Origin: a virus
Reading direction: 5' to 3' (one strand)
Length of the DNA: 24,666 bases
Virus record (IMG/VR): IMGVR_UViG_3300025141_016572
A model generated the notes under the pieces. That model was not told the DNA's origin. It ran no database searches and saw only the letters and a list, made by a program, of their open reading frames with translations. Made by a program: the position numbers and the translations under genes. Each line of letters opens with the position of its first letter. The first letter of the stretch is position 1. Positions 1 to 10,647 of the stretch are shown one piece after another.

Positions 1-165
1 GGTGAAGCCGGTCTCGGTGAAGATCGTCTGACCGCACCGGGTTCAGCAGTGGGCGGGCTCTCGGCTTCGGTCGGGGGCTCGTCCTCTCCCGCGGCGAACG
101 GAAGGGTATGTGCATTAATACCCTCCGAGTATGTGCATTTAAATCCCTTAACCAGTTAATCATCG
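1..165 (+). CDS. Possible 3' end of an upstream gene (partial). Frame 1 is open from the window edge to TAA 163-165, with strong GNN codon periodicity in the first ~100 nt.
   Basis: Only plus frame 1 is open from position 1 and it has GNN-rich codon usage like the fibre gene at the other end of the window. The last ~20 codons overlap an operator-like repeat region, so the true stop may differ. A minus-strand ORF 1..115 is an alternative. Confidence 0.3.
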
Positions 166-194
166 TGTAAATCCCTGTCCGGTCGTGGTATAAT
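104..194 (+). promoter_or_regulatory. Regulatory region with a palindrome GGGTAT-N8-ATACCC (104-123), a degenerate direct copy GTATGTGCATTTAAATCCCT (129-148, period ~23), a palindrome TTAAC-CA-GTTAA (148-159), a -35-like GTGTAAA (165-171), 17 nt, and an extended -10 TGGTATAAT (186-194).
   Basis: Read directly. The -35-like and -10 spacing and sequence match four other copies of the same promoter type in the window. The palindromes sit where an operator would be. Confidence 0.6.
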
Positions 195-225
195 GGGGAT
201 GCGCCCAGGGAGGGGCGGAGAGAAA

Positions 226-498
226 ATGACCAACCCCCGATTCATTCAAGTGGTTCTGGTGATAGCGATCCTGATGTCTTGCTTCAAAGCATCGGCTCAG
301 AGTTGCTACAGTATCCCCGATCACGATCAGAGATATTACTGCTTAGCCCTTACCAAACAGGACGCTAGCAAGTGTCGATCCATCAAGAATAGGGACACAC
401 GATACTTCTGCCTGGCAGAGGTGACTAAAGATCGAAGTAAGTGCCGGTCCATCAAGGACAAACTGCACAGGGCAGTTTGCCTGGCACGTGTCAAGTGA
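226..498 (+). CDS. Small secreted Cys-containing protein with ~2.5 tandem ~23-aa repeats (YYCLALTKQDASKCRSIKNR / YFCLAEVTKDRSKCRSIKDK / AVCLARVK). It has an N-terminal signal peptide MTNPRFIQVVLVIAILMSCFKASAQ.
   Basis: The second in-frame ATG at 226 is preceded by GGAGAGAAAATG, the same leader/RBS as at gene 2071. The track start at 193 overlaps the -10 box. The signal peptide is hydrophobic and ends in AxA-like ASAQ. The internal repeat is visible at protein level, while the DNA copies have diverged. Confidence 0.6.
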   Translation: MTNPRFIQVVLVIAILMSCFKASAQSCYSIPDHDQRYYCLALTKQDASKCRSIKNRDTRYFCLAEVTKDRSKCRSIKDKLHRAVCLARVK

Positions 499-508
499 GG
501 TAAACATT

Positions 509-736
509 ATGAGCTACCATGACTATGATGAGTTCTCAGATTATGAGTATGACCGATCTGACCGGTCAGACTTCAAGGACCCGGGTGGTACTTCTGCTCT
601 TCGAGCGGCAAGTGAAGACAATCCACGAAATCTGCCGTGTCCAACGTGCAAGGAGTCCAATCGGTTGACGCCGGCTGATCGCGCACGTGGTTACCAGTGT
701 GATGGATGTGCCAGCCTGGCCGAGTTGGGCTGGTAA
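509..736 (+). CDS. Small acidic protein with a C-terminal zinc-ribbon-like motif (CPTC...17...CDGC).
   Basis: ATG 509 with GAGGT 9 nt upstream. The track start GTG 488 lies inside the previous gene's last codons. The Cys pairs are CxxC-N17-CxxC. Confidence 0.5.
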   Translation: MSYHDYDEFSDYEYDRSDRSDFKDPGGTSALRAASEDNPRNLPCPTCKESNRLTPADRARGYQCDGCASLAELGW

Positions 737-746
737 GGAGAAAGTG

Positions 747-1022
747 ATGAGTGGAAAAACCTACAGTGTCTATGTCTTTCGGCGAGCTTGCCTCTATGAG
801 ACCGTTGACATTTCGTCAAGCTTGAGCAAAAAAGATGCCCAGTCGCAATATCAAAAAATGTGTCTGGCGTATTGTGTAGCCGACGGCTTCACTGTAAAAG
901 TATATTCAGAAACTCTACCAGCGGACATTGTGGACACGTCTGGCTGGCTCGTTGGCAAGCCCATGCCAACAACAAAGCCCATCGGACCGGTGATGCCAGG
1001 TGAAAACTTTGGCTGGATGTGA
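747..1022 (+). CDS. Hypothetical protein (91 aa).
   Basis: ATG 747 with AGGAG 7 nt upstream, in frame with track ORF 687..1022. Confidence 0.5.
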   Translation: MSGKTYSVYVFRRACLYETVDISSSLSKKDAQSQYQKMCLAYCVADGFTVKVYSETLPADIVDTSGWLVGKPMPTTKPIGPVMPGENFGWM

Positions 1023-1033
1023 TACTTATTGCT

Positions 1034-1219
1034 ATGAACACTGACACGTCAGAAATAGCACTCATTGACCCGATGATTCGAGATCTTCGTCGTGATGTCG
1101 ATCAGCTAACTGAACAGCTTGAAGAAGCCAAGAAAAACATGCAACGCTTGATCGATTTATGCACACATTGCCCGTGGCGACAGGCTCAAACACAACTTGT
1201 CAATCCGCAAACATCTTAG
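1034..1219 (+). CDS. Hypothetical small protein with a coiled region and a CTHCP motif. The start is uncertain (GTG 1019 or ATG 1034).
   Basis: Track ORF 1019..1219. The RBS is weak and the start overlaps the previous stop (ATGTGA). Confidence 0.35.
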   Translation: MNTDTSEIALIDPMIRDLRRDVDQLTEQLEEAKKNMQRLIDLCTHCPWRQAQTQLVNPQTS

Positions 1220-1322
1220 ATAGCTGCACAAGCTGTCAGATTTGTCTCTGCTGCTTTCGTTTGTCACCCACCAGTTATCCTACCTCCTGCGAAAACTTAC
1301 AACCAATCAGCTCTGGTGACCT

Positions 1323-1351
1323 GTGTAAACGACACTCCGGCATGGTATAAT
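1323..1351 (+). promoter_or_regulatory. Promoter copy 2: GTGTAAA (1323-1329), 16 nt, TGGTATAAT (1343-1351).
   Basis: Same architecture as promoters at 165-194, 1974-2002, 6899-6928 and 10620-10647. It lies 38 nt upstream of ATG 1389 and is followed by a GC-rich leader (accggggttcacc). Confidence 0.6.
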
Positions 1352-8982: not shown

Positions 8983-9003
8983 TTAAAGACAGCAGGAGAG
9001 ACT

Positions 9004-9300
9004 GTGAAGATCACAAAGAAACAACTCAAAAACATTGTTGAGCAGGCCATGAGGCCTGCAGGTCGGCCAATCTATGAGATCGCTGAGGAGATCAAACAAG
9101 CTTGGCCGAAAGTTAATCCTCATGCTCAACCGTATCTGGACGCGATGTTTTCTTTGGACTCTGTCAATGACAAGTACGGGATGGAAGATGGAGCCAGCAT
9201 CGTGGAGTACTTTCTGGTCAATGCTGGATCATTTCGAGGGCCAGAAGCCAAGAGAATCAAGTCCGAGCTACGAAAAATGACAAAGGGATTTTGGAAATAA
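9004..9300 (+). CDS. Hypothetical protein (98 aa) with GTG start. N-terminus is MKITKKQLKNIVEQAM.
   Basis: GGAGAG RBS 4-9 nt upstream of GTG 9004. Confidence 0.55.
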   Translation: MKITKKQLKNIVEQAMRPAGRPIYEIAEEIKQAWPKVNPHAQPYLDAMFSLDSVNDKYGMEDGASIVEYFLVNAGSFRGPEAKRIKSELRKMTKGFWK

Positions 9301-9301
9301 C

Positions 9302-9358
9302 ATGAAAATCACGAAACGACAACTGAAGCAAATTATTCGAGAAGTGACATCGTCATAG
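9302..9358 (+). pseudogene. 18-codon ORF MKITKRQLKQIIREVTSS*, a truncated paralogous copy of the N-terminus of gene 9004. It is either a decayed duplicate or a leader-peptide-like remnant.
   Basis: About 67% nucleotide identity to 9004-9042 over the first 39 nt and the same amino-acid motif. It terminates at TAG 9356-9358, right before the RBS (AGGTGA) of gene 9368. Confidence 0.4.
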
Positions 9359-9367
9359 GTGATTCAA

Positions 9368-9856
9368 ATGAAAGCAGAAAAAGTGCTAGAGACATGGCTT
9401 AAGTTATCAGGCCTTTTGACAGAAGATATGTCATACGCAGAAGGTCAAGTTCTTGATAAGTTGAATTCCATGGCCGGGCCTCGGGGTCTTCCTGTCACTC
9501 ATGAAACACCGGCAGAAAACATTGATAGCATCAAAAGTATGGGAACTGTTGAAGGCACATACGGGGTCTTCTTTTCCATTGGTCATCTTAAAAATCCGGC
9601 ATTTGTCAGCGGCCCGGGATACATTATTCACGGATATCTGCCGAGGTTTATGCTTAACTCCAGGTATATTCACCCAGATATGATTTATGCTCCGGGTAGC
9701 AAAGACGAAGAAGACATGTTAGCTGGGGATGAGGAAGACTTTTGGGAAGTAATGTGGAATCAAACCCGAGGCAATTTGTTTGGGGCTCTTCTTAGCACCA
9801 ACTTAGACGATTGGCCTCAAAAATATTGGAAAGCAATTATTCCAAACGATCTTTAG
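9368..9856 (+). CDS. Hypothetical protein (162 aa).
   Basis: ATG 9368 with AGGTGA 5 nt upstream. Track lists GTG 9359. Confidence 0.55.
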   Translation: MKAEKVLETWLKLSGLLTEDMSYAEGQVLDKLNSMAGPRGLPVTHETPAENIDSIKSMGTVEGTYGVFFSIGHLKNPAFVSGPGYIIHGYLPRFMLNSRYIHPDMIYAPGSKDEEDMLAGDEEDFWEVMWNQTRGNLFGALLSTNLDDWPQKYWKAIIPNDL

Positions 9857-9865
9857 GAGAACACG

Positions 9866-10324
9866 ATGGCAACAACAATATCTAACGCAAACTTGGTTAT
9901 AACCGTAAACGAAGATGTCAAATTAAACGGTCACCAGGTTGGAAGCAAAATTGTGCAAACGATTGGTAGTATCAATGAGGCTTCGCGGCGAATAATGTCT
10001 GTGCCGACGTCAGAGACGACAGTTTTGACGCTGAGCAGTTCGATTGCTGCTGGCGGATACGTGACCAACAACATTCAGTACATTCGTGTTTCGAACTTGG
10101 ATGATACCAATTTTGTTCGATTGACATTCTTGTCGGGATCTGGCGGTTCATCAAATCGATACGATGTAAAGTTGCCAGCAAAGAGAACTGCTATTTTCAC
10201 AAGCCCAAGTGTATCTGGCTCTAACATAGGCTCAACATTTGATGCCTTTTCCAACTTTGACACCATGAAGGCCACCGCAGATACAGCAGTGGTTGATGTT
10301 GAACTTTTTGTTGCGAGTACCTAA
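9866..10324 (+). CDS. Hypothetical beta-rich Ser/Thr/Gly-rich protein (152 aa), possibly structural.
   Basis: AGGAGAacacgATG RBS. Composition only. Confidence 0.55.
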   Translation: MATTISNANLVITVNEDVKLNGHQVGSKIVQTIGSINEASRRIMSVPTSETTVLTLSSSIAAGGYVTNNIQYIRVSNLDDTNFVRLTFLSGSGGSSNRYDVKLPAKRTAIFTSPSVSGSNIGSTFDAFSNFDTMKATADTAVVDVELFVAST

Positions 10325-10605
10325 TGTCAAATTTGCTTCGTCGCATGATCGCTGAGGTGTTGCATGAAGGCGATATGGGTCACAACTCGTATACACTCGA
10401 TCCGACTCCCAATACGTGGGACAGCTTTCAAGATTTTGAAATTGAGTATTACCCACAAGACGACGGGACATATCTGATGGACATTTCTTTCAAGGGCAAG
10501 AAGCTCGCACCCATGAGTAAGTTTGGGACACAGGCTGATGCACAGCATCATGCAAGAATGATTGTTGACAAGCATCGAGTCAACGTGATGAATACCGAGC
10601 TCTAA
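10324..10605 (+). CDS. Hypothetical protein (93 aa). N-terminus is MSNLLRRMIAEVLHEG.
   Basis: Track ORF with start overlapping the upstream stop (TAATG). Confidence 0.5.
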   Translation: MSNLLRRMIAEVLHEGDMGHNSYTLDPTPNTWDSFQDFEIEYYPQDDGTYLMDISFKGKKLAPMSKFGTQADAQHHARMIVDKHRVNVMNTEL

Positions 10606-10619
10606 ATTCCTCCCAAATA

Positions 10620-10647
10620 TGTAAATCGAAGCATCCTCGGTTAGAAT
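10620..10647 (+). promoter_or_regulatory. Promoter copy 5 (degenerate): TGTAAA (10620-10625), 16 nt, TAGAAT (10642-10647). It is followed by leader hairpin GAGGTG-N9-CACCTC (10657-10677).
   Basis: Read directly. It sits in the only sizeable intergenic gap (87 bp) of the small-ORF block. Confidence 0.5.

What the first reader, a model, noticed from the sequence alone, without database searches (positions are those of the whole stretch)
165..10647. Five copies of an unusual promoter architecture: GTGTAA(A/G) -35-like box, 16-17 nt, T(G/A)GTATAAT extended -10, each followed by a GC-rich leader hairpin
Copies lie at 165-194, 1323-1351, 1974-2002, 6899-6928 and, in degenerate form, 10620-10647. 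The -35 element is not TTGACA but a conserved GTGTAAA. Together with the extended -10, this resembles activator-dependent or sigma-appropriated phage promoters, for example T4 middle promoters with a MotA box at -30. Each transcript leader begins with a short GC-rich stem-loop (GTCGC-N7-GCGAC; CCGG-N8-CCGG; GAGGTG-N9-CACCTC). Two leaders share the 13-mer GGAGAGAAAATGA across the start codon (genes 226 and 2071). This points to a dedicated regulon, early or middle, with protected 5' ends.
Basis: seen in the sequence. Interest (0 to 1): 0.55.

Follow-up and report, generated by a model that had tools for sequence, protein, structure and literature searches.

The report
Marine jumbo-phage promoter family with leader hairpin
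Four (plus one weak) copies of a real, evolutionarily conserved phage promoter cassette, with an unusual GTGTAA box, a perfect extended -10 and in most copies a hairpin at the predicted start of the transcript, drive the small pre-replicative genes of an uncultured marine jumbo phage; the cassette is a lineage-specific variant of strong phage early promoters, not a new kind of system.

Summary
GTGTAA-N17/18-TATAAT occurs at 165-194, 1323-1351, 1974-2002 and 6899-6928. All four copies are on the + strand, 40-75 nt upstream of + strand genes, and shuffles expect none. The fifth site (10619-10647, ATGTAA-N17-TAGAAT) is weak, but a relative has a better copy at the orthologous position.

The window comes from an uncultured marine jumbo phage. 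The same cassette recurs 9-32 times in the held parts of related 168-318 kb contigs, always on the gene strand. It clusters in a promoter-dense arm in front of ORFans, ligases, NUDIX, ATPases and tRNA arrays, never in front of structural genes. Bacterial genomes show only chance-level single hits.

Across the family, a hairpin starts at the conserved G seven nt after TATAAT more often than shuffles predict, and its loop is enriched in GGGGA. The window's own hairpins are not individually significant.

Best reading: strong promoters read by the primary sigma factor, with a lineage-specific -35 variant and 5'-terminal hairpins, comparable to T4 early promoters. The MotA-type (sigma appropriation) reading fails its sequence and spacing tests but is not excluded mechanistically. 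The small sigma-region-4 protein is conserved, yet shows no link to the box.

The parts
164..194 (+). Promoter P1: C-GTGTAA-A box (165-171), 18-bp spacer, TGGTATAAT (186-194)
   Evidence: 30.0 bits
201..225 (+). P1 leader: predicted +1 G at 201 (G of the conserved ATG, 7th nt after TATAAT); hairpin 202-217 (CGCCC-AGGGAG-GGGCG, -9.8 kcal/mol); SD GGAGAGA 217-223; start codon at 226
1322..1351 (+). Promoter P2: T-GTGTAA-A (1323-1329), 17-bp spacer, TGGTATAAT (1343-1351)
   Evidence: 25.9 bits
1358..1388 (+). P2 leader: weak hairpin 1360-1378 (-7.2 kcal/mol), no conserved ATG initiator, SD GGAG, start codon at 1389
1973..2002 (+). Promoter P3: C-GTGTAA-G (1974-1980), 17-bp spacer, CG-TGGTATAAT (1994-2002). 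Best match to the family matrix. Orthologous promoters lie upstream of the same ATPase gene in L001 and L002.
   Evidence: 41.1 bits
2009..2070 (+). P3 leader: predicted +1 G at 2009; hairpin 2011-2026 (CCGG-UGGGGAAG-CCGG); second hairpin 2036-2050 (CCCGG-GGAUA-CCGGG); SD GGAGAGA 2062-2068; start codon at 2071 (KaiC/RadA-like ATPase)
6898..6928 (+). Promoter P4: C-GTGTAA-A (6899-6905; its TAA is the stop codon of the cREC_REC gene), 18-bp spacer, TAGTATAAT (6920-6928). Probably heads the ~13.5-kb operon 6968-20454.
   Evidence: (30.1 bits)
6935..6967 (+). P4 leader: predicted +1 G at 6935; 5'-terminal hairpin 6935-6951 (GUCGC-CGGGGAU-GCGAC), which carries the family's typical GGGGAU loop; SD AGGAG; start codon at 6968
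10619..10692 (+). Weak internal member: ATGTAA (10619-10624)-N17-TAGAAT (10642-10647), hairpin GAGGTG/CACCTC 10656-10677, start codon at 10693. The orthologous site in L017 has the full GTGTAAA box.
17819..17847 (+). Borderline match inside the 3' end of the PrkA gene (GTGTAAT-N16-TATAAT), 60 nt upstream of gene 17907. Chance-level score.
   Evidence: 11.8 bits; shuffle maximum 13
2837..2863 (.). 12-bp GC-rich terminator hairpin between the converging ATPase gene (+) and the MVP-like gene (-). It ends the P1-P3 transcription units.
20470..20503 (.). 15-bp bidirectional terminator hairpin that ends the long + strand operon and the minus-strand sigma-4.2-like gene

Best explanation
These are genuine, strong promoters of the pre-replicative (most likely early) genes of an uncultured marine jumbo phage.

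The -10 half (Y-R-T-G-G-TATAAT) is a perfect extended -10 element for a primary (sigma-70/sigma-A type) sigma factor. I infer that host RNA polymerase holoenzyme uses these promoters directly.

The near-invariant Y-GTGTAA-R box sits exactly where a -35 hexamer sits, 17-18 bp upstream. It keeps T-34, G-33 and A-30 of TTGACA. I read it as a lineage-specific -35 variant contacted by sigma region 4, comparable to the TTTACW variant of T4 early promoters.

Transcription is predicted to start at the conserved G seven nt downstream of TATAAT, where T-1/G+1 fits the pyrimidine/purine rule. In this subclade the RNA begins immediately with a G+C-rich hairpin (5' arm +1..+7, 3' arm about +14..+20) whose loop is enriched in GGGGA. 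The hairpin most likely shields the 5' end from 5'-end-dependent RNases. The Shine-Dalgarno sequence and start codon follow about 20-40 nt later.

Shown: the motif, its conservation, strand and position, its gene class, and the family-level hairpin signal. Inferred: the polymerase and sigma factor used, the start site, the timing, and the stabilising role of the hairpin.
For: - Motif statistics in the window.
- Conservation in relatives that share only about 70% amino-acid identity: 7 and 6 copies upstream of the orthologous ATPase in L001 and L002.
- In held parts of the three jumbo contigs, 32/32, 10/10 and 9/9 copies lie on the gene strand. They cluster in 27-50 kb and 253-301 kb of the 318-kb contig and are absent from 12-kb loci fetched for another reason.
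- In clade loci, 77 of 94 TGNTATAAT sites carry GTGTAA at -35. The boxes are invariant while the spacer carries about 0-0.2 bits.
- 77 of 82 copies lie within 250 nt of a same-strand ORF start, with a median leader of 36 nt. The ORF-less copies precede tRNA arrays.
- First downstream genes are ORFans, MoxR/DUF2201, KaiC-like ATPase, DNA and RNA ligases, NUDIX and HNH; none is structural. In the window the motif is dense in 0-7 kb and absent before the tail-fibre-like genes at 22 kb.
- -17/-16 Y-R and TG at -15/-14 match the sigma-70 extended -10.
- Bacterial genomes (596 Gb) give 34 scattered single hits, which is chance level.
- Hairpin: 38 of 84 leaders have a hairpin of -6 kcal/mol or better starting at +1/+2, against 13.9 expected. 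The pairing profile rises sharply at +1.
- GGA in the loop: 30 observed against 9 expected.
- Lineage-specific -35 variants with N17 spacing and TGn are documented for T4-type early promoters (PMC4122927, PMC2988021).
Against: - No transcription start site or expression data exist, and the host is unknown.
- GTGTAA matches TTGACA at only 3 of 6 positions. With a perfect extended -10 a -35 element is dispensable, so its near-invariance is more than simple polymerase binding would demand and could indicate a dedicated reader.
- The rest of the genome (170-320 kb in relatives) could not be inspected for activators, sigma factors or a phage RNA polymerase.
- The window's own hairpins are not more stable than shuffles.
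- In many copies the 5' half (GTTGCCGGGGAT) is constant while its pairing partner changes register. The conserved sequence itself, not only the hairpin, may therefore be what is selected.
- More distant family members have the same boxes but no hairpin.
Confidence: 0.5

Rival explanations
1. Activator-dependent or sigma-appropriated (middle-type) promoters. Host sigma reads only the extended -10, and a phage-encoded DNA-binding factor reads the Y-GTGTAA-R box. That factor could be a functional analogue of MotA/AsiA, or a stand-alone sigma-4.2-like HTH protein such as the product of 20485-20676.
For: - The box is near-invariant although a perfect extended -10 makes a -35 element unnecessary.
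- The conserved stretch is 8-9 bp (-36 to -28) and overlaps the region a MotA box occupies (PMC2988021).
- A 63-aa sigma-region-4.2-only protein is encoded in the window and conserved at 70-78% identity in all three jumbo relatives. Compared with primary sigma it differs in the recognition helix at two positions (TRMRICQ against TRERIRQ).
Against: - The box sequence is unrelated to the MotA box (TGCTT), and its spacing is that of a -35 hexamer (17-18 bp), not 12+-1 bp (PMC2988021).
- No MotA, MotCF or AsiA Pfam hit in any window ORF.
- The promoters sit in front of the small ORFan genes expected to be expressed first, and of tRNA arrays.
- The sigma-4.2-like protein belongs to a broad marine family with an invariant HTH. 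Other carriers show no GTGTAA promoters, and GTGTAA is at chance frequency nearby. Multi-copy GTGTAA contigs outside the clade were not among the contigs carrying it.
- Its gene lies on the opposite strand at the far end of the long operon.
Confidence: 0.27
2. The promoters are read by a phage-encoded full-length sigma factor (or phage RNA polymerase) whose region 4 recognises GTGTAA.
For: Jumbo phages often encode their own transcription components. Only a fraction of each related genome could be examined. The box is invariant across a diverse phage family.
Against: - The -10 half is exactly the consensus of primary cellular sigma factors, including -17/-16 and TG.
- No full-length sigma factor or RNA polymerase domain was found among the window ORFs.
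- No beta/beta' catalytic motifs (DFDGD, RHGNKG) were found in 674 kb of held clade and related sequence. Coverage is partial.
Confidence: 0.08
3. The cassettes act mainly as recombination substrates (PeSL-like mobile regulatory cassettes) that shuffle ORFans. Their uniformity would then come from gene conversion and not from selection on promoter function. This does not exclude promoter activity.
For: - Repeated, co-oriented cassettes flank small ORFs that have no homologues in relatives: g226, g509, g747 and g1034 gave no tblastn hits.
- Gene order between cassettes differs between the window and L017.
- The PeSL precedent in T4-like phages (PMC4122927).
Against: - Conservation is confined to the functional boxes while the spacers are unconstrained. 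That pattern indicates selection, not recent copying.
- The defining PeSL feature, an adjacent upstream terminator stem-loop, is present in only about 4 of 82 copies.
- No recombination junctions were examined.
Confidence: 0.1

Closest known systems
Bacteriophage T4 early promoters (Pe; 'UP/-35/TGn/-10' promoters read by unmodified host sigma-70 holoenzyme)
   Same: A perfect or near-perfect -10 with TGn. A 17-bp spacer. A strongly conserved, lineage-specific -35 variant (TTTACW in T4/PST, TTGYVH in KVP40/nt-1, GTGTAA here). Dozens of copies in front of small pre-replicative genes, all co-oriented with them (PMC2988021, PMC4122927).
   Different: The -35 sequence differs. There is no clear UP element, only weak T-richness upstream. 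A conserved initiator (ATG-T) and a +1 hairpin with a GGGGA loop are present here. The phage is not a detectable T4 relative, and the host is unknown.
PeSL (promoter-early stem-loop) cassettes of T4-like phages
   Same: A repeated composite regulatory cassette (promoter plus stem-loop) between ORFans in a plastic genome arm.
   Different: In PeSLs the stem-loop is an upstream terminator. Here the stem-loop lies downstream, at the 5' end of the transcript, and upstream terminators are rare (4/82).
T4 middle promoters (MotA box plus sigma-70 -10; sigma appropriation by AsiA/MotA)
   Same: An excellent -10 (often TGn) combined with a conserved phage-specific element in place of TTGACA.
   Different: The MotA box is (a/t)3TGCTTtA, centred at -30 and 12+-1 bp from the -10 (PMC2988021). 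Here the box is YGTGTAAR, 17-18 bp (hexamer) from the -10. No MotA or AsiA homologue was found in the window.
5'-terminal stem-loop mRNA stabilisers (e.g. E. coli ompA 5' hairpin; from my own knowledge)
   Same: The hairpin begins within 0-1 nt of the predicted 5' end in 46 of 84 leaders.
   Different: The start site and any effect on stability are untested. The loop sequence (GGGGA/GGA) is also conserved, which a purely structural stabiliser would not need.

Membership tests
Primary-sigma (sigma-70/sigma-A) extended -10 promoter | TATAAT-like -10 hexamer upstream of a gene on the same strand | tested here: met
   Exact TATAAT in P1-P4, 40-75 nt upstream of start codons. 77/82 family copies lie within 250 nt of an ORF start.
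Primary-sigma (sigma-70/sigma-A) extended -10 promoter | TG at -15/-14 (TGn) | tested here: met
   TGG in P1-P3, TAG in P4. In the family, T 73/78 and G 74/78, with Y-R at -17/-16.
Primary-sigma (sigma-70/sigma-A) extended -10 promoter | -35 hexamer resembling TTGACA at 17+-1 bp | tested here: inconclusive
   The spacing of 17-18 bp fits. The sequence GTGTAA matches only 3 of 6 positions (T-34, G-33, A-30), and the canonical promoter scan does not report these sites.
Primary-sigma (sigma-70/sigma-A) extended -10 promoter | Transcription initiates 6-8 nt downstream with host holoenzyme | not testable with these tools
   Only indirect support: conserved T-1/G+1 and a hairpin boundary at that G.
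T4-type MotA/AsiA-dependent middle promoter | MotA box (a/t)(a/t)(a/t)TGCTTtA | tested here: not met
   The box is Y-GTGTAA-R-a. The MotA consensus is taken from PMC2988021.
T4-type MotA/AsiA-dependent middle promoter | Box positioned 12+-1 bp upstream of the -10 hexamer (centre -30) | tested here: not met
   GTGTAA lies 17-18 bp, and GTGTAAR 16-17 bp, from TATAAT.
T4-type MotA/AsiA-dependent middle promoter | Phage encodes MotA and AsiA | tested here: inconclusive
   No such Pfam domain in any window ORF. The window covers under 15% of a genome of this clade.
PeSL cassette (T4-like phages) | Terminator stem-loop immediately upstream of an early promoter | tested here: not met
   A hairpin plus T-run within 45 nt upstream occurs in 4 of 82 copies, and in none of the window's four.
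PeSL cassette (T4-like phages) | Repeated cassettes flanking variable ORFans in a plastic region | tested here: met
   Dense co-oriented copies. The window's small ORFs have no homologues in held relatives. Most downstream ORFs have no Pfam match.
5'-terminal stem-loop mRNA stabiliser | Stem-loop starting within about 0-2 nt of the mRNA 5' end | tested here: inconclusive
   Conditional on the predicted start site. 46/84 hairpins start at +1/+2; 38 have -6 kcal/mol or better, against 13.9 expected. Window hairpins are individually not significant.
5'-terminal stem-loop mRNA stabiliser | Increases mRNA half-life | not testable with these tools
   Needs an experiment.
CsrA/RsmA-type binding hairpin (GGA in loop; criterion recalled from memory) | GGA presented in the loop of a short hairpin, often with a second GGA at the Shine-Dalgarno sequence | tested here: inconclusive
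   GGA in the loop of a 5'-terminal hairpin: 30/83 against 9 expected. GGGGA occurs in 31/83. SDs are GGAG-type. The host and the presence of CsrA are unknown.

The most novel reading that the evidence does not exclude
The near-invariant Y-GTGTAA-R box may not be a sigma-4-read -35 hexamer. It may instead be the target of a dedicated specificity factor shared by a large uncultured family of marine (jumbo) phages. That would be a new, MotA-unrelated form of sigma appropriation, possibly involving the stand-alone sigma-4.2-like HTH protein family. The conserved +1 GTTGCCGGGGAU/GGGGA-loop element would then be a recognition site for an RNA- or DNA-binding regulator (for example shut-off of early transcripts, or CsrA-like binding), not a passive 5' cap.
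Probability: 0.2. Interest if true: 0.75.

Novelty: new variant of a known kind. Interest (0 to 1): 0.42.

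Why it matters
The motif gives a sequence signature (Y-GTGTAA-R, N13-14, TGGTATAAT, then ATG-T and a hairpin) that marks transcription units and the pre-replicative arm of a large, uncultured group of marine jumbo phages. Almost nothing else about these phages is annotatable.

The signature can be used in three ways:
- to annotate operons and tRNA-array promoters;
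- to bin fragments of the family;
- to choose templates for in vitro tests.

The scientific question it opens is why a -35 box that differs from TTGACA at three positions is kept invariant next to a perfect extended -10. The answer is either an unusual host sigma preference or an undiscovered phage specificity factor.

Tried and rejected
- Nucleotide search of the whole window against isolated phages found no match. tblastn of PrkA and the ATPase found only distant relatives at 32% identity or less (Thermus, Ralstonia and huge phages). No cultured relative or host could be named.
- The canonical TTGACA/TATAAT scan found nothing above chance and misses these sites.
- Rfam found no family in the window.
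- Literature searches for GTGTAA or TGGTATAAT phage promoters found nothing relevant.
- The link between the sigma-4.2-like protein and the box was tested by looking for GTGTAA promoters around its homologues in other phages. None were found, and GTGTAA was at chance frequency.
- The CRP/NtcA-like palindrome idea was rejected on reading the sequences. No consistent second half-site exists.
- Leaderless translation from the conserved ATG was rejected, because the ATG is out of frame with the gene in most copies.
- GGGGA-loop hairpins as free-standing elements were rejected. The good-quality ones are promoter-associated.
- RNAalifold or covariance-model analysis of the hairpin was not pursued, because the pairing register differs between copies.
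- Attempts to extend the window through identical proteins gave only short contigs.

Full report
**Observation**

Reading the window and pattern searches confirm four exact copies of GTGTAA-N17/18-TATAAT. They lie at 165-194, 1323-1351, 1974-2002 and 6899-6928, all on the + strand. Each is 40-75 nt upstream of a + strand start codon (226, 1389, 2071, 6968). One hundred dinucleotide shuffles produced no match. All four GTGTAAR heptamers in the 24.7 kb belong to these sites. Three sites have TGGTATAAT and one has TAGTATAAT.

A two-block weight matrix built only from relatives scores the four sites at 26-41 bits. The next candidate (17819-17847, inside the PrkA gene) scores 11.8 bits, which is within the shuffle range (maximum 13). 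Nothing scores on the minus strand.

In relative L017, however, the orthologous spot upstream of the same 142-aa gene before ClpP reads GTGTAAA-N16-TAGAAT preceded by TGT. I therefore accept it as a weak, decaying member.

The 13-mer is simply a Shine-Dalgarno sequence plus start codon.

**What the window is**

Pfam and PHROG scans give the following layout:
- small ORFans at 226-1219;
- a KaiC/RadA-like ATPase (2071-2817);
- a minus-strand 890-aa protein with major-vault-protein shoulder and SPFH domains (2937-5609);
- a cREC_REC protein, then a long + strand operon (6968-20454) with ClpP, a helicase, DUF444, SpoVR, PrkA and an Hc1-like protein;
- a minus-strand 63-aa sigma-70-region-4 protein (20485-20676);
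- PIN-PhoH, then tail-fibre-like and beta-helix genes from 22070 to the end of the window.

No isolated phage is close. The ATPase finds two IMG/VR contigs of 284 and 168 kb at 69% identity. ClpP, the helicase and PrkA are 70-76% identical to a 318-kb contig. An identical 7.2-kb contig comes from the JGI metagenome 3300025112, and homologues of the small sigma-4.2-like protein carry Tara source labels. The window is therefore part of an uncultured, apparently marine jumbo phage. It spans the boundary between a promoter-dense arm and the structural genes.

**Conservation**

The same motif occurs 7 and 6 times in the 10 kb upstream of the ATPase orthologues in L001 and L002, always on the gene strand.

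A collection scan with GTGTAA-N14/15-TGGTATAAT-NNNN-ATG hit 45 stretches of viral contigs, concentrated on a handful of contigs. The same pattern in 596 Gb of bacterial genomes gave 34 scattered single hits without the leader, about what chance predicts.

In the held parts of the three jumbo contigs, 32/32, 10/10 and 9/9 copies are on one strand. In the 318-kb contig they lie at 28-48 kb and 253-301 kb, plus two near 100 kb. None occurs in the 12-kb loci around the sigma-4-like gene.

In the clade loci, 77 of 94 TGNTATAAT sites have GTGTAA at -35. The family consensus is Y-GTGTAA-R-a, a variable spacer, (a/t)-Y-R-TGG-TATAAT, an A/T-rich discriminator ending in ATG, then T and a C-rich and a G-rich stretch. 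The boxes are invariant while the spacer carries almost no information. This indicates selection on the boxes, not recent copying.

**Relation to genes**

Of 82 copies, 77 have a same-strand ORF of at least 40 aa starting within 250 nt, with a median leader of 36 nt. The ORF-less copies in L006, L028 and L140 sit in front of tRNA arrays of 6-14 tRNAs.

Most of the 58 first downstream ORFs in relatives have no Pfam match. Those that do are MoxR ATPase, DUF2201, KaiC-like ATPase, DNA ligase, Rnl1-type RNA ligase, NUDIX, HNH, a kinase-like AAA_33 and a phosphoesterase. None is structural. This is the profile of pre-replicative genes.

**The leader**

I take +1 as the conserved G seven nt after TATAAT (T at -1). 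On that basis the minimum-energy hairpin starts at +1 or +2 in 46 of 84 leaders. Thirty-eight have a hairpin of -6 kcal/mol or better there, against 13.9 expected from shuffles that keep composition. The base-pairing profile shows a 5' arm at +1..+7 and a 3' arm at about +14..+20.

GGA occurs at +6..+17 in 50 of 83 leaders (23.8 expected) and in the loop of a 5'-terminal hairpin in 30 (9 expected). GGGGA occurs in 31. Orthologous promoters keep the hairpin with different stems: P3 has GUCCGG...CCGGC, against GUUCCC...GGGAAC in L002.

There are four caveats:
- The window's own hairpins are no more stable than dinucleotide shuffles of these G+C-rich leaders.
- In many copies the 5' half GTTGCCGGGGAT is constant while the partner changes register. 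The sequence itself may therefore be under selection.
- The ATG part of the consensus is partly ascertained by the scan pattern. It is nevertheless present in about 70% of the independently fetched copies.
- The start site is predicted, not mapped.

**Breadth**

A second scan without the downstream requirement (CGTGTAA-N14/15-TGGTATAAT) showed that the two boxes are used well beyond the immediate clade. Several further contigs of 35-135 kb carry 3-7 co-oriented copies with quite different, short, hairpin-less leaders (e.g. TATAAT-aagaaag-TAAGGAG).

Many of these contigs share the ATPase or MoxR genes at 59-73% identity. They are more distant members of the same phage family. A few (L122/L131, L036, L129, L137) show no similarity to the sequence I hold. 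The box pair is thus the old, stable part, and the +1 hairpin is a subclade addition.

**Mechanism**

The -10 half is a textbook extended -10 for a primary sigma factor, including the -17/-16 positions. The -35 box sits at the canonical distance and keeps three TTGACA positions. The promoters precede the genes a phage needs first, and its tRNAs. T4-type early promoters are documented to be multi-element promoters with lineage-specific -35 variants at N17 (PMC2988021, PMC4122927).

I therefore favour direct use by host primary-sigma holoenzyme, with the box as a -35 variant and the hairpin as 5'-end protection (confidence 0.5).

The main rival is a dedicated reader of the box (0.27). Its best argument is the invariance of a box that a perfect extended -10 should make dispensable. 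Against it:
- The MotA criteria fail on sequence and on spacing (12+-1 bp required).
- No MotA or AsiA domain is present in the window.
- The sigma-4.2-only protein is conserved in the clade and differs from primary sigma at two recognition-helix positions. But it belongs to a broad marine family with an invariant helix-turn-helix, and other carriers show no GTGTAA promoters nearby.

A phage sigma factor or RNA polymerase (0.08) and a mainly recombinational, PeSL-like role (0.1, not exclusive) are less likely. Upstream terminators, the defining PeSL feature, occur in only 4 of 82 copies.

**Verdict**

The specific sigma-appropriation analogy is not supported.

This is a new variant of a known kind, namely strong, lineage-specific phage early promoters. 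Its interest is moderate. It lies in the invariant non-canonical -35 box, in the conserved +1 element, and in a practical signature for annotating an uncultured marine jumbo-phage family.

Noticed in passing
window 2937-5609 (-): An 890-aa phage protein with Major Vault Protein shoulder (E 9e-22), Vault_3 repeat and SPFH/Band-7 domains. It is the only large minus-strand gene, converging on the ATPase gene at a shared terminator. Vault-like proteins are unusual in phages.
   Followed up: partly
window 13433-17907 (+): A complete DUF444 (YeaH)-SpoVR-PrkA triad (E 1e-107 to 1e-133) inside the long operon, conserved in the 318-kb relative. PrkA has distant homologues (about 30% identity) in Thermus phages, Ralstonia phage RsoM2USA and 600-kb 'huge phage' records.
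   Followed up: partly
window 20485-20676 (-): A 63-aa stand-alone sigma-70 region-4.2 HTH protein. It belongs to a widespread marine metagenomic family of 46-97 aa proteins with an invariant core SLQEIGDxLGLTRMRICQ(L/I)EK. The recognition helix differs from primary sigma at two positions (E to M, R to C). Function unknown.
   Followed up: yes
window 20248-20454 (+): A 68-aa protein matching chlamydial histone H1-like Hc1 (PF07432, E 4e-7), just upstream of the bidirectional terminator.
   Followed up: no
window 106-176 (+): Direct repeat GTATGTGCATT(T)AA(A)T(A/C)CC at 106-123 and 129-146. TAAATCCCT recurs at 141-149 and 168-176, the second copy overlapping the -35 box of P1. This could be an operator or decayed duplicate -35 regions.
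   Followed up: partly
window 51-84 (+): A very stable 15-bp hairpin with a UUCG loop (region 30-110 folds at -40.8 kcal/mol, z = -2) without a U-tract, just upstream of P1. Its role is unknown; it may be a terminator or processing site of the upstream unit.
   Followed up: no
L006 6296 and 9911; L028; L140: The same promoter type, with a different leader (TATAAT-(t/g)gattca-(c/t)aagg...), drives arrays of 6-14 phage tRNA genes in relatives.
   Followed up: yes
window 226-498 (+): The first gene downstream of P1 encodes a 90-aa protein with an N-terminal hydrophobic segment. The gene contains an internal 69-nt-spaced direct repeat (367-387 and 436-456) whose translation is Cys-rich. No homologues in any library.
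   Followed up: no
window 7724-8479 (+); L023, L006, L039: The 251-aa protein has three tandem paralogues in the 318-kb relative (29-36% identity). This is a lineage-specific expanded family without Pfam or PHROG hits.
   Followed up: partly
window 22070-24666 (+): A Gp53-like tail-fibre C-terminal domain protein, followed by a repeat-rich ORF of at least 642 aa (DUF2345/VgrG-like beta-helix) that runs off the window. The minus-strand ORFs listed in 22648-24561 are therefore spurious.
   Followed up: partly
L116, L108, L122/L131, L130, L133, L036 (viral contigs): More distant or unrelated viral contigs carry 3-7 co-oriented GTGTAA-N17-(T/G)G(G/T)TATAAT promoters with short hairpin-less leaders. 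The box pair is much more widespread than the jumbo clade.
   Followed up: partly
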